This document shows, piece after piece, positions 24,001 to 26,402 of a DNA stretch of 26,402 nucleotides. Each line of letters starts with the position of its first letter. Position 1 is the stretch's first letter. Origin of the DNA: a virus (taxonomy: Duplodnaviria > Heunggongvirae > Uroviricota > Caudoviricetes). The stretch is taken from positions 1 through 26,402 of IMG/VR virus record IMGVR_UViG_2541047828_000003; one strand, given 5' to 3'. Position numbers: made by a program.

Positions 24001-26402
24001 TTCGCAGGGTTTTGGCTACTTTCACGTGCGAACCTGCAGAATTGCAAAGGACAACTAAGTCCTCTGGCCAACTCCCGGTTTATGAGCGACACAGTCCGCC
24101 TGGCGCATCGTTTTCGTCGAGTGCGCCCATCAGCTTGTCCATGGACTATCCACCACTCGATATTAAAGCTAATCATTGGTTGCCAGCCCGCGAATCAAGT
24201 TTGTTCTGGATCCAAGCTTCAACCTCCTCAAGCGACCATCTAGCTGATCTACCAATTTTAACTGGCTGTGGAAACGTGCCCGTCTTAACCCATGAGTAGA
24301 TTGCCGTTTTCTTGAAGCCCGTTCTGAGCATAACTTCGCTTAATTTGATAAGGCGCATAGAGGCTCCTCTGCTTTAGATTAAGCATAGTGACAATCTGGC
24401 TTTGGCGGTATCCAAAAGCGAGGTATCCATGTTGGTATCCACCAAAACGCTGTTTACCAAAAAAGTTACCACCGGAACAGGACATTTTGAGCTGTAACTT
24501 AACACATAGCATATGGAGTTCACGCATAGACTTCACGCACAACGGCTCCGGCCAGTGAAGAATCACCCTGGCTGGCAATATAATGCCGATCACCATCAGA
24601 GGGGGATCCATGACACCACGAGAAATCGAGCTGCTGACCATTGCCAAGCTGGAGCATGACGGCCACCAGCTCAGCCCGGCAGAACTGCGGGAATTAAGGC
24701 GCCAGCTGGCAGAGGGCCCTGTAATAGCCAGGCGGTACCGCGAAATGATGACCAGCCCCGCATATCGCTGGAGCAAACCAGCGCCGCTCCGTGCGCGGTG
24801 AGCAGCACCTAACCAGCACTAGACAAGCCCTGTGCTGGTGGATGTCCCTCATAATTAGCGGTTTTTAAACAGCGTGTTGGTTCACGGCCTCTTTTTGTTG
24901 GTTCAAAAATGGGGTGTGTTGGTTCACTTTTTGCGAATAATTCTTTTAAAAACAATACTCTTTACAAATTGAACCAACTGAACCAACTGAACCAACACCT
25001 TTTTGCTTATCTATATAGTCTGAGAGGCAGAAATGATAAGGGACAGGAAAGCTGAAGATCTGGAGTCAAAAGGGCTATACCGGAGAGCTGCCGCACGATG
25101 GGCAGAAATCATGATGCTGGCAGATGGCGATAAAGAACGTGAACATGCAGCAAACAGACGCTCTGAATGTATCCGTAAGGCGGCACGCCAACCAGCAACT
25201 ACAGACAGATTCGGAGATTTAAGACAGGCAGTTAAGCGAACTCATTCGGCTCTTGGTATGGATGAGGAAGCGAGAGGGTACTTCAGGCGTTATCGCGATA
25301 AAGATTGCCAGAGACAGTAATGCTCTCTCTGTTTTGGCAAATTACCCCTCACTTTGAAGAGATCGGAGCTATAAAAATGGTGTTATCCGGCTTCCTCAAA
25401 TTGAGGTTTCCGAAAATATCAGCGGGTTAGCGATTAATCTGGCGAGTAATTAAACTGCGAAAATTTCGTAGGGGGTTACGAAAATTTCGTAGGTCTACTC
25501 ATGGTTTAGGCTTACTTTCCCGACATCCCCCAATGGGTGGGGGCGAAATAATCAATGGGTTAGGCTTACCTCCCCCATTTCCTGCATTGCAGGTTTTCGA
25601 AAGAATCAATGGGTTAGGTCATCGTGCAAATTTGCACTCTGACAGCCAACGCAATTTCTCGTTGGCGGAAATATCAGGTATTTACTGAACGAACGGTCTA
25701 CCCGCCTGTTCAACTACCAGTTGTACATGGCTGCTTTATGTGCAAATGGTGGTGAGAGAAAATTGTTTGGGGGTACTTTTGGGGGTATCTTCAAAGATGT
25801 AATTGGAAAATATCTTTATATATCAATGTATTTTTATTGTTTGTTTTGTTCCTATTATCGCACCATTTAAATCAATAAGTTACCCCATATTTAAATACAC
25901 CACGTTTCCTCCTGTGCCGTATTTGTGCCATTGTAACCCTGGCAATTCATCAAAATACTGTTCTGACATCAGGCAATGCAGGTGCAGACATTTAAGCCAA
26001 TTGCTGCCGCCATTCCTTGACGTGGTCAATCAGGGCGCGGAGCTTTGGTGCAATATTGCGACGCTGTGGGAAATACAGATAGAAGCCTGGAAATTGTGGA
26101 AGAAAGTCATCAAGCAGCGATACAAGCTTACCGCTTTCAATATATGGCCTGAAAGTTTCCTGAGTGGCAATTGTTATTCCTTCACCGACAAGAGCCAGCT
26201 GCAACATCAGACGCAGATCATTAGTCGTAATCTGCGGTTCAATCGCAAGGTCGAAAGTTCTCCCGTTTTCTTCAAATGGCCAGCGATAAGGCGCAACCTC
26301 CGGGGACTGACGCCAGCCGATACACTTATGGGTATTTCCCCCGGAGGCGAGAAAGCGCTCTCCACGCCCGGCCGCAAGGATCAGGACGACGGGGGCAGGC
26401 AT

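What the first reader, a model, noticed from the sequence alone, without database searches (positions are those of the whole stretch)
24359..24609. Divergent control region with two families of direct repeats
Three GGTATCCA repeats and two TTCACGCA repeats lie between the minus-strand alpA-like gene and a plus-strand 64-aa gene with its own -10 and SD. The layout suggests a switch in which a regulator, possibly AlpA or the PerC-like protein, bound at the repeats controls divergent transcription.
Basis: seen in the sequence. Interest (0 to 1): 0.45.

Follow-up and report, generated by a model that had tools for sequence, protein, structure and literature searches.

The report
Orphan phage-terminase recognition repeats in a satellite
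The repeats are real, but they match the sequences that one family of phage DNA-packaging proteins (small terminases) appears to recognise inside its own genes, so this known phage-parasitic island (EcCIMP1-like) probably carries copied packaging signals that let helper phages package it, rather than a simple AlpA/PerC gene switch.

Summary
GGTATCCA occurs three times (24407, 24422, 24434; spacing 15/12). TTCACGCA occurs twice (24519, 24532), with a degenerate third copy, TTAACACA, at 24499. These lie between alpA_1 (minus strand) and a real, conserved 63-aa gene.

The island is an EcCIMP1-like PICI. EcCIMP1 is a published satellite with no terminase genes and an unknown packaging mechanism.

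The exact architecture octamer-N7-octamer-N4-octamer is found in every sampled small-terminase (TerS) gene of family phrog_1206, just after the helix-turn-helix. The octamer tracks two residues of the TerS recognition helix without exception in about 260 genes: HGAIN with GGTATCCA, HTAIN with GGTTTCCA, EGAIR with GGTACGCA, DTAIR with GGTTCGCA.

TTCACGCA x3 occupies the same position in a sister TerS lineage. The window encodes no such TerS. Related islands carry tandem arrays of several octamer classes, often with no alpA or PerC nearby.

Best reading (about 0.5): these are orphan TerS-binding sites that mimic phage pac sites. The AlpA/PerC switch idea has no specific support.

Caveats: TerS binding and pac function are inferred. 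The known helper, Kapi1, has a different TerS. No cognate GGTATCCA-class phage was found in E. coli.

The parts
24173..24358 (-). alpA_1-like gene (61 aa, AlpA/Xis family). It is the counterpart of EcCIMP1_023.
   Evidence: Pfam PF05930, E 1.9e-13. Window 23203-25116 is 97.7% identical to E. coli MP1 EcCIMP1. Published function: PMC11773190.
24407..24441 (+). GGTATCCA-N7-GGTATCCA-N4-GGTATCCA. Proposed orphan recognition site for a phrog_1206-type small terminase whose recognition helix reads ..HGAIN.. (a pac-site mimic).
   Evidence: beyond chance. (same architecture in TerS genes, with perfect helix-octamer concordance). (no TerS-like protein in the window).
24452..24471 (+). GTTTACCA-N5-GTTACCA doublet (GGTTACCA-class-like). 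A matching doublet is present in C. freundii locus L475.
   Evidence: This is a weak feature and may be a decayed site.
24499..24539 (+). TTAACACA-N12-TTCACGCA-N5-TTCACGCA (family TTMACRCA, spacing 20/13). Proposed second TerS-class site and/or activator site for the small-gene promoter.
   Evidence: Conserved as TTAACGCA x3 in L002/L144/L473 and as TTAACGCA/TTCACGCA x2 in L475. TTCACGCA x3 sits inside sister TerS genes L152/L193/L201/L240.
24556..24605 (+). Promoter and leader of the small gene: weak -35 TGAAGA (24556-24561), -10 TATAAT (24579-24584), SD GAGGGGG (24599-24605).
   Evidence: The core TGGCnGGCAnTAnAATGCYGATCACCAYCAG...GGGAG is conserved in relatives. The consensus promoter scan was negative.
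24610..24801 (+). Conserved 63-aa gene ('small63'), function unknown. It is unannotated in MP1, and PGAP replaces it elsewhere with a minus-strand 45-aa ORF.
   Evidence: 70 homologous protein clusters in Enterobacterales. Third codon positions vary 2.3 times more than first and second positions. AlphaFold2 predicts a two-helix hairpin, pLDDT 76. No Pfam/PHROG match and no fold match.
24876..24996 (.). Context: three direct and three inverted GTTGGTTCA iterons around an AT-rich core. This is a probable replication origin, paired with an identical iteron set at 17364-17474 just after the primase gene.
   Evidence: (12 copies against 0.22 expected). The pair is also present in MP1.
25033..25320 (+). 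Context: PerC-family gene, the counterpart of EcCIMP1_025.
   Evidence: Pfam PF06069, E 3.1e-32. PMC11773190.

Best explanation
Both repeat families are orphan recognition sites for phage small-terminase (TerS) proteins. In effect they are copies of helper-phage packaging (pac) signals carried by a satellite island that has no terminase of its own.

Shown:
- The island is an EcCIMP1-like PICI.
- In phages of one TerS family (phrog_1206), the same octamer-N7-octamer-N4-octamer element lies inside terS, just downstream of the helix-turn-helix.
- The octamer changes in step with two residues of the TerS recognition helix.
- The island has the GGTATCCA version in non-coding DNA and encodes no such TerS.

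Inferred mechanism: during a helper's late phase, a TerS of the ..HGAIN.. class binds 24407-24441, and a ..EG.IR.. class TerS may bind the TTCACGCA copies. TerS then recruits the large terminase, and headful packaging of replicated island concatemers starts there. Carrying several octamer classes in tandem, as relatives do, would widen the range of usable helpers.

Because the sites sit 50-200 bp upstream of both divergent genes, TerS binding could additionally change their transcription. That last step is speculation.
For: 1. Identity of the element. Window 8077-19393 is 99.2% identical, and 23203-25116 is 97.7% identical, to EcCIMP1 of E. coli MP1, which has the same repeats. The paper reports no terminase or capsid genes, an unknown packaging mechanism, very low transfer by helper Kapi1, and probable other helpers (PMC11773190).

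2. Motif in phages. A scan for GGTNNCCA-N7-GGTNNCCA-N4-GGTNNCCA in IMG/VR gave at least 120 loci. In 117 of them all three copies carry the same central dinucleotide. About 99 of those lie inside a roughly 200-aa ORF that precedes a large terminase. That ORF matches phrog_1206 'terminase small subunit' at E 1.4e-84.

3. Unbiased sample. 80 TerS loci were chosen by protein similarity only, giving 68 distinct genes. All have the triplet at 15/12 spacing with at most 1 mismatch.

4. Covariation without exception:
- HGA[IV]N with GGTATCCA
- HTAIN with GGTTTCCA
- HTAIQ or HQAIS with GGTTGCCA
- HVAIx with GGTTACCA
- [ED]GA[IV]R with GGTACGCA
- DTAIR with GGTTCGCA
The mapping is combinatorial. Helix position 3 (G or T) goes with octamer position 4 (A or T), and helix position 6 (N or R) goes with TCCA or CGCA. 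A tree of the C-terminal domain needs at least 12 class changes. The covarying residues fall in the second helix of the HTH, judged from weak Sigma70_r4 and other HTH Pfam matches to residues 8-40.

5. DNA-level constraint. All three copies in one phage use the same valine codon (GTA or GTT). In the TTCACGCA lineage the third copy is in a different reading frame.

6. The second repeat family of the finding, TTCACGCA x3, occupies the equivalent position in sister TerS genes with helix NEGT[IV]R.

7. No TerS-like or HTH-matching protein is encoded in the window.

8. Island arrays found independently of the motif, through small63 homology:
- L138/L139 carry AT + TG + TT triplets in tandem.
- L006 carries AT + TG/TT.
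- L473/L002 carry TG + TTAACGCA x3.
- L475 carries a degenerate AT triplet, a TT triplet, a TA doublet and a TTMACGCA triple.
A GC-rich non-TerS locus, L479, has GGTACGCA x3 + GGTTAGCG x4 + GGTAAACA x2. The L024 group keeps octamers and spacing but has unrelated spacers.

9. Precedent. A 16.8-kb int-AlpA-Rha-primase satellite is packaged by headful as multimers in helper capsids (PMC4936722).
Against: - No experiment shows that TerS binds the octamers or that packaging starts there. The pac assignment rests on location and covariation.
- The helix codons lie only about 70 bp from the triplet, so part of the association could reflect linkage.
- The one proven helper, Kapi1, has an Sf6-type TerS and no such repeats. 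These sites therefore cannot explain the published transfer.
- Only 13 of 5426 complete E. coli genomes carry a terS detectable by blastn with the L027 (GGTATCCA-class) query, and the two inspected (L133, L134) are GGTACGCA class, not GGTATCCA. No cognate helper was identified for E. coli.
- The island TTMACRCA copies are spaced 20/13, against 12/13 in the TerS genes. The only phage hit at 20/13 (L145) is upstream of a holin gene, not in terS.
- Some relatives have decayed arrays or none: L135, L469, L471, L472.
- At least one pattern hit (L020) lies in a replication-initiator-like ORF (my reading of its sequence; not family-searched), so it may be iterons rather than a TerS site.
Confidence: 0.5

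Rival explanations
1. TerS-responsive (or other helper-factor-responsive) control element or decoy. The repeats bind helper TerS, but the purpose is to sense the helper's late phase and switch on the small gene or alpA_1, or to titrate TerS and interfere with the helper. They would not be a packaging start.
For: - The arrays are always on the same strand as small63. In the small63-homology loci and the L024 group they lie 100-300 bp upstream of it; in L066 the small63-like gene is about 800 bp away on the other side.
- The small63 promoter has a perfect -10 but a poor -35.
- The TTMACRCA copies are centred near -56 and -69, typical activator positions.
- A TTAACGCA triple with the same 20/13 spacing sits upstream of a phage lysis operon in L145.
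Against: - The small63 gene and its promoter occur without any array in L469, L471 and L472.
- Triplets also occur in satellite-like loci without an adjacent small63, for example L073 upstream of a primase and L040/L066.
- TerS proteins are not known transcription factors (established knowledge).
- The function of small63 is unknown.
Confidence: 0.2
2. First reader's model. The repeats are operators for the island's own AlpA_1 or PerC-like protein and set divergent transcription of alpA_1 and the small gene.
For: - The repeats lie between divergent genes.
- AlpA/Xis-family proteins bind arrays of direct repeats (established knowledge).
- L002/L473 also pair an HTH/AlpA-like gene with the arrays.
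Against: - Arrays are present with no alpA or PerC in L138/L139, L006 and L475.
- alpA lies on the other side of the triplet in L040/L066.
- The motif classes are those of TerS genes and track TerS helices, not AlpA.
- The Kapi1 att region, which AlpA_1 can serve, lacks the motif.
- Deleting alpA_1 has no effect on the island's life cycle (PMC11773190).
Confidence: 0.08
3. Non-functional debris. The repeats are short relics of past recombination between islands and phage terS genes and have no present role.
For: - Spacers in the window, L006 and L002 (AAAGCGA, AACGCGA, AACGTGA) resemble the phage K-R-E coding spacer.
- Some relatives show decay (L135, and the first triplet of L002 and L475).
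- No cognate phage was found in E. coli.
Against: - There is no terS homology beyond about 20 codons around the triplet.
- Several different classes are stacked in tandem, each only about 35 bp long.
- The L024 group keeps octamers and spacing with unrelated spacers.
- All three copies are perfect in every E. coli variant examined.
Confidence: 0.15
4. Replication accessory sites. GGTATCCAC resembles a DnaA box (TTATCCACA) and lies about 450 bp from the iteron origin.
For: The third copy plus flank matches the DnaA box at 7 of 9 positions. The iteron origin lies at 24876-24996.
Against: - Relatives replace the octamer with GGTTGCCA or GGTTTCCA, which are not DnaA-like.
- The iterons recognised by the primase are a different word, GTTGGTTCA.
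Confidence: 0.03

Closest known systems
EcCIMP1, the phage-inducible chromosomal island of E. coli MP1 (PMC11773190)
   Same: It is essentially the same element: int, alpA, antA, ash, icd-like, TOPRIM/DUF927 primase, DUF2824 and P22-type ejection-protein genes, alpA_1 on the opposite strand, and PerC. Identity is 97.7-99.2% over the shared parts, including this control region.
   Different: The window variant has a different gp16-like segment (19393-23203). It lacks the pRiA4b/second small63 module that follows PerC in MP1. It also sits next to another integrase-bearing element. The paper does not mention the repeats, the small gene or the iterons (one search found 0 hits for 'intergenic' and 'origin of replication').
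pac sites inside terS genes of headful phages: P22 gene 3, P1 pacA hexamer repeats, SPP1/SF6 pac (own knowledge; SF6 HTH-ring recognition in PMC4737164)
   Same: The phage motif lies inside terS, is made of short direct repeats, and is matched to the TerS helix-turn-helix.
   Different: It belongs to a different TerS family (phrog_1206) with no solved homologue by sequence. The element is a strict octamer x3 at 15/12 spacing with a simple apparent two-residue code. It has not been tested experimentally.
Satellites that carry their helper's packaging signal: P4 with P2 cos, SaPIbov5 with phage cos, and EcCICFT073 cos plus Rpp (own knowledge; Fillol-Salom 2019 is cited in PMC11773190)
   Same: A satellite with no terminase of its own would be recognised by the helper's terminase through a copied DNA signal.
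   Different: Here the signal would be a pac-type TerS site rather than cos. Relatives stack several specificity classes in one array. No redirecting protein such as Rpp has been identified.
PhiAH14b/PhiAH14a satellite-helper pair of Pseudomonas (PMC4936722)
   Same: It is an int-AlpA-antirepressor-primase island of about 17 kb with no structural genes, packaged by headful as multimers in full-size helper capsids.
   Different: It comes from a different host and shares no sequence relation. No pac element was described for it.
Xis/TorI/AlpA (recombination directionality factor) binding-site arrays
   Same: They are closely spaced direct repeats next to an AlpA-family gene.
   Different: The repeats are not near an att site. 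The motif is absent from the Kapi1 att region, which AlpA_1 can serve. The arrays also occur without alpA.

Membership tests
EcCIMP1-type PICI (the element that holds the region) | Gene set of int, AlpA, antirepressor, Ash, primase, a second AlpA and PerC, with no capsid or terminase genes | tested here: met
   Pfam scans, annotation of L001 and MP1, and no TerS-like ORF.
EcCIMP1-type PICI (the element that holds the region) | Sequence identity to the published element | tested here: met
   blastn of the window against MP1: 99.2% over 11.3 kb and 97.7% over 1.9 kb, the latter including the control region.
EcCIMP1-type PICI (the element that holds the region) | Helper-induced excision and transfer | not testable with these tools
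   Shown for MP1 with phage Kapi1 in PMC11773190, not for this strain.
Phage pac site (TerS recognition site) | Located in or next to terS in the phage genome | tested here: met
   This holds for the phage counterpart of the motif: about 99 of 117 pattern hits, and all 68 distinct TerS genes sampled by protein similarity alone.
Phage pac site (TerS recognition site) | Sequence specificity matched to the TerS DNA-binding domain | tested here: met
   Helix-octamer concordance without exception: 89 of 89, 68 of 68, about 100 of 100, and the named phages. Caveat: the two features are physically linked.
Phage pac site (TerS recognition site) | TerS binds the site; the terminase makes the first cut nearby; packaging runs in one direction from it | not testable with these tools
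   Needs EMSA or footprinting and mapping of virion DNA ends.
Phage pac site (TerS recognition site) | The site alone confers high-frequency transduction on foreign DNA | not testable with these tools
   Needs a plasmid or island transduction assay with a cognate phage.
AlpA/Xis operator or RDF binding array | Co-occurs with the cognate AlpA/Xis gene and lies in an att arm | tested here: not met
   Arrays occur without alpA in L138, L006 and L475. The repeats are about 1 kb or more from the island end. The Kapi1 att region has GGGTAAAA repeats and no GGTATCCA.
P4-type ori/crr iterons | The same word occurs in both origin-like clusters near the primase gene | tested here: not met
   The iteron word is GTTGGTTCA, at 17364-17474 and 24876-24996. 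GGTATCCA and TTCACGCA are absent from those clusters.
DnaA boxes | Match to TTATCCACA that is conserved in relatives | tested here: not met
   The best match is 7 of 9 positions. Relatives have GGTTGCCA or GGTTTCCA at the same positions.
Sigma-70 divergent promoter/operator region | Recognisable -35/-10 pairs on both strands, overlapped by the repeats | tested here: inconclusive
   The consensus scan found none. By eye there is a TATAAT with a weak -35 for the + strand gene, and no clear promoter for alpA_1.

The most novel reading that the evidence does not exclude
The island carries a modular 'multi-key' packaging signal. It would be a tandem array of short pac mimics, each matching a different specificity class of one widespread small-terminase family, so that one satellite can be packaged by several otherwise incompatible helper phages. 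The same data suggest that this TerS family reads its pac site through a simple two-residue code in the recognition helix, which co-evolves with a triple octamer embedded in its own gene.
Probability: 0.35. Interest if true: 0.8.

Novelty: new variant of a known kind. Interest (0 to 1): 0.62.

Why it matters
EcCIMP1 is a proven satellite, but its packaging mechanism and its main helpers are explicitly unknown (PMC11773190). If these repeats are terminase recognition sites, three things follow.

- They name the missing helpers: phages with a phrog_1206 TerS of the HGAIN class, and possibly the EG.IR class.
- They explain why transfer by Kapi1 is so poor.
- They give a 35-bp element that can be tested directly.

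More broadly, the result would define the pac site and an apparent recognition code for a TerS family found in Klebsiella, Escherichia, Salmonella, Edwardsiella, Pseudomonas and other phages. It would also show that satellites can collect several such signals. That is relevant to predicting which phages mobilise which islands, and the virulence or defence genes those islands carry.

Tried and rejected
- Chance. Rejected for the triplet. The TTCACGCA pair alone is within chance and needed comparative support.
- Known RNA families. Rfam found only C4 and isrK, at 11933-12160, and nothing in the region.
- tRNA or att context. There are no tRNAs in the window.
- Kapi1 as the source of the motif. 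Its TerS is Sf6-type, it has no motif clusters, and its att repeats are unrelated.
- A TerS-like or HTH-matching protein encoded by the island. None was found.
- Function of the small gene. There is no Pfam or PHROG family. The AlphaFold2 model is a two-helix hairpin. Foldseek against PDB and BFVD gave nothing below E 0.1.
- A solved TerS homologue. None was found by sequence.
- Literature search for the octamers or for a pac site in this TerS family. Nothing relevant turned up.
- Metagenome scan with the promoter/leader word. It was swamped by chance hits, and only 2 of 120 loci were real.
- First spacing guess of 13/13 for the TTCACGCA TerS class. It was wrong; the correct spacing is 12/13.
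- PGAP's minus-strand 45-aa ORF (24520-24657). Rejected in favour of the + strand gene on the codon-position pattern and family conservation.
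Full report
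**Observation.** GGTATCCA occurs at 24407, 24422 and 24434 on the + strand, with start-to-start spacing 15 and 12. TTCACGCA occurs at 24519 and 24532. The AlpA-family gene is 24173-24358 on the minus strand (PF05930). The + strand gene starts at ATG 24610 and is preceded by TATAAT (24579-24584) and GAGGGGG (24599-24605). A degenerate third copy, TTAACACA, at 24499 makes the second family TTMACRCA x3 at spacing 20/13. In 300 dinucleotide shuffles of the window, no 8-mer ever occurred three times within 40 nt. About 6.7 close 8-mer pairs are expected by chance, so the triplet is highly non-random while the TTCACGCA pair needs outside support.

**What the element is.** The region lies at the right end of a chromosomal island next to a truncated LysR gene and paoD. 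The island carries int, alpA, antA, ash, an icd-like gene, a TOPRIM/DUF927 primase, DUF2824, P22 gp7/gp20/gp16-like ejection-protein genes, a second alpA on the opposite strand, and PerC. This is the published satellite EcCIMP1 of E. coli MP1. Window 8077-19393 is 99.2% identical to MP1, and 23203-25116 is 97.7% identical. MP1 has the same triplet, the same TTMACRCA copies (one mutated to CTCACGCA), the same unannotated small gene and the same iterons.

The paper (PMC11773190) reports the following:
- Excision and transfer are induced by the P22-like phage Kapi1, at about 4.8e3 particles per ml.
- The island has no terminase or capsid genes, and its packaging mechanism is unknown.
- alpA_1, the gene beside our repeats, is dispensable for excision and transfer but can stand in for Kapi1 Xis.
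- The PerC-like protein represses LEE1.
- Only 2 of 21 carrier strains have a Kapi1-like prophage, so the authors expect other helpers.
- The repeats are not discussed.

**The small gene is real.** Homologues of 61-63 aa form 70 clusters across Enterobacterales. Third codon positions vary 2.3 times more than first and second positions. RefSeq annotates homologues on this strand in other islands. PGAP's minus-strand 45-aa ORF at 24520-24657 is probably spurious. The protein has no Pfam or PHROG family. It is predicted as a two-helix hairpin with a conserved basic tail and has no informative fold match. Its function remains unknown.

**Relatives keep the architecture but change the word.** Two loci found through the small gene show this: Leclercia L006 and E. 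coli LR-33 L002. At the same place they have GGTATCCA x3 plus GGTTKCCA x3 (L006), or GGTTGCCA-N7-GGTTGCCA-N4-GGTTGCCA plus TTAACGCA x3 at 20/13 (L002). That pattern prompted a scan of IMG/VR for GGTNNCCA-N7-GGTNNCCA-N4-GGTNNCCA.
- Of at least 120 hits, 117 have the same dinucleotide in all three copies: AT, TT, TG or TA.
- About 99 of those lie inside a roughly 200-aa ORF that starts about 178 nt upstream and is followed by a large-terminase-like ORF.
- That ORF is phrog_1206 'terminase small subunit' (E 1.4e-84). It has relatives in Escherichia phage HK639, Salmonella SEN34, Edwardsiella GF-2, and Klebsiella, Providencia and Pseudomonas phages.
- The triplet encodes V-[S/A/T]-K-R-E-V-x-x-x-V-x just after the N-terminal helix-turn-helix.

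**Covariation with the TerS helix.** In 89 of 89 parsed TerS genes the octamer is predicted by the helix:
- HGA[IV]N with GGTATCCA
- HTAIN with GGTTTCCA
- HTAIQ or HQAIS with GGTTGCCA
- HVAIx with GGTTACCA

Named phages and E. coli prophages add [ED]GAIR with GGTACGCA. A sample of 80 TerS loci was chosen by protein similarity alone, giving 68 distinct genes. It shows the triplet at 15/12 spacing in every case (at most 1 mismatch), again with no discordance, and adds DTAIR with GGTTCGCA. A further scan for GGTWCGCA triplets gave about 100 distinct genes with the same rule.

The mapping is combinatorial. Helix position 3 (G or T) goes with octamer position 4 (A or T). Helix position 6 (N or R) goes with TCCA or CGCA. 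All four combinations exist. On a tree of the C-terminal domain the class changes at least 12 times. The variable residues fall in the second helix of the HTH, judged from consistent though sub-threshold matches of residues 8-40 to Sigma70_r4, HTH_psq, HTH_28 and others.

Within a phage, all three copies use the same valine codon, which a purely protein-level constraint would not require. I infer that TerS reads these octamers and that the element is the pac site or its core. This fits the established placement of pac inside terS in P22, P1 and SPP1-type phages (own knowledge). One caveat applies: helix codons and triplet are only about 70 bp apart, so linkage contributes to the association. 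No solved homologue and no literature on this motif were found.

**The second repeat family.** TTCACGCA x3 at spacing 12/13 occupies the equivalent position in a sister TerS lineage with helix NEGT[IV]RSRAK (L152, L193, L201, L240). Its third copy is in a different reading frame, so the constraint is on the DNA. The rule 'G at helix position 3 goes with A, and R at position 6 goes with CGCA' holds here too. The island copies are spaced 20/13, not 12/13. The only phage locus with TTAACGCA x3 at 20/13 (L145) is upstream of a holin gene. This assignment is therefore weaker, and a promoter-activating role cannot be excluded, because the copies centre near -56 and -69 of the small gene's weak-minus-35 promoter.

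**Islands carry orphan sites, often several classes.** The window encodes no TerS-like protein and no matching HTH. The best hit to the TerS profile is the translated triplet itself. Loci reached through small63 homology, independently of the motif, show:
- AT + TG + TT triplets in tandem in Leclercia L138/L139, with no alpA or PerC nearby;
- TG + TTAACGCA x3 in L473;
- a decayed AT triplet, a TT triplet, a GGTTACCA/GTTACCA doublet and a TTMACGCA triple in a C. freundii EcCIMP1-like island, L475. The window has the same kind of doublet at 24452-24471.

Other non-TerS contexts from the scans are:
- the L024 group, with GGTTGCCA x3, unrelated spacers and a small63 homologue 138 nt downstream;
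- L040/L066, with alpA on the other side of the triplet;
- L073, upstream of a P4-type primase;
- L479, with GGTACGCA x3 + GGTTAGCG x4 + GGTAAACA x2.

Some relatives have lost the arrays (L135, L469, L471, L472).

**Mechanism proposed.**
- Shown: the motif identity, its placement in terS genes, the covariation, the absence of a cognate protein in the island, and the multi-class arrays in related islands.
- Inferred: a helper TerS of the matching class binds the island repeats and starts headful packaging of island concatemers made from the iteron origin.
- Speculative: stacked classes broaden the helper range, and binding also affects alpA_1 or small63 transcription.

A functional precedent is the 16.8-kb int-AlpA-Rha-primase satellite PhiAH14b, which is packaged as multimers by headful (PMC4936722).

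**Evidence against, and limits.**
- Kapi1, the one proven helper, has an Sf6-type TerS and no such repeats. These sites cannot explain the published low-level transfer, although they could explain why it is low.
- The control region is present in 152 of 5426 complete E. coli genomes. A phrog_1206 terS was detected in only 13, by blastn with a GGTATCCA-class query, and the two inspected are GGTACGCA class. No cognate helper is known in E. coli.
- Nothing here is biochemical.

**Rivals.**
- A TerS-responsive control element or decoy: about 0.2.
- Relic of recombination with terS genes: about 0.15. This is disfavoured by the lack of flanking homology, by the stacked classes, and by the conserved octamers and spacing with unrelated spacers.
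- The AlpA_1/PerC operator model: about 0.08. It is disfavoured by arrays that occur without these genes, by the Kapi1 att comparison, and by the null phenotype of the alpA_1 deletion.
- DnaA or iteron roles: about 0.03.

**Verdict.** The finding is real and more interesting than proposed. The element itself is already known. The reading of its repeats as copied terminase recognition signals, possibly with multiple specificities, is a new variant of a known satellite strategy, and it is directly testable.

Noticed in passing
window 17364-17474 and 24876-24996: There are two clusters of six GTTGGTTCA iterons, three direct and three inverted, around AT-rich cores. One lies just after the TOPRIM/DUF927 primase gene and one between the small gene and PerC. 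The window holds 12 copies against 0.22 expected. The pair looks like a P4 ori/crr-type origin (own knowledge of P4) and is also present in MP1. A Klebsiella phage, P12620-1, has 81% similarity to window 24896-25015 in unannotated DNA.
   Followed up: partly
window 24520-24657 (-) versus 24610-24801 (+): RefSeq/PGAP annotates a minus-strand 45-aa hypothetical protein (WP_154670367) here and leaves the + strand 63-aa gene unannotated (in MP1 neither is called). The codon-position pattern and 70 homologous clusters support the + strand gene.
   Followed up: yes
window 1-8021: A separate element lies upstream of the island's integrase. It has an HTH_36 protein, a major capsid protein E homologue (2656-3684), a Dit-like tail protein (5865-6575) and its own integrase on the minus strand (6657-8021). 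It is absent at this position in MP1 and in strain GF8. It may be a capsid-encoding satellite or a phage remnant in tandem.
   Followed up: no
window 18101-22759: The satellite carries homologues of P22 virion ejection proteins (DUF2824, gp7, gp20/Inj_translocase and a 701-aa gp16-like protein). The segment 18101-18690 is 81% identical in DNA to Kapi1_055. The segment 19393-23203 differs from MP1.
   Followed up: partly
window 11933-12160: Rfam finds isrK (11933-12010) and C4 antisense RNA (12073-12160) inside the ash region. This is the P1/P4-type immunity RNA module.
   Followed up: no
window 25372-25421: A 50-nt stretch after PerC is 96% identical to part of the Kapi1 anti-repressor gene (Kapi1_032, 13227-13276). 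It gives a weak hit to the TerS N-terminal profile (E 0.03). It is probably a recombination scar.
   Followed up: no
L145:360-400 (IMG/VR UViG_2579778549_000007): TTAACGCA x3 with the island-type 20/13 spacing sits between a terminator-like hairpin and a holin-endolysin-spanin cassette of a phage, not in terS. This is unexplained. It could mark a late-promoter activator site or a pac site outside terS.
   Followed up: partly
L479 (IMG/VR UViG_2795385460_000001), around reverse-strand position 7345: A GC-rich non-terminase locus has GGTACGCA x3, GGTTAGCG x4 and GGTAAACA x2 in one array. This suggests that multi-class octamer arrays also occur in unrelated mobile elements.
   Followed up: no
L005:3600-4010 (E. 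coli STN0717-20): Upstream of a paralogous small63 gene there is a different repeat set rich in nnTGCGCA and TCGCAG words (for example GGTGCGCA and GTACGCA). It resembles the CGCA-type octamers but has different spacing.
   Followed up: no
L141-L143 and L348 (MP1): Some islands carry two small63 paralogues. In C. freundii one lies before and one after an integrase gene. In MP1 one follows the arrays and one follows PerC.
   Followed up: no
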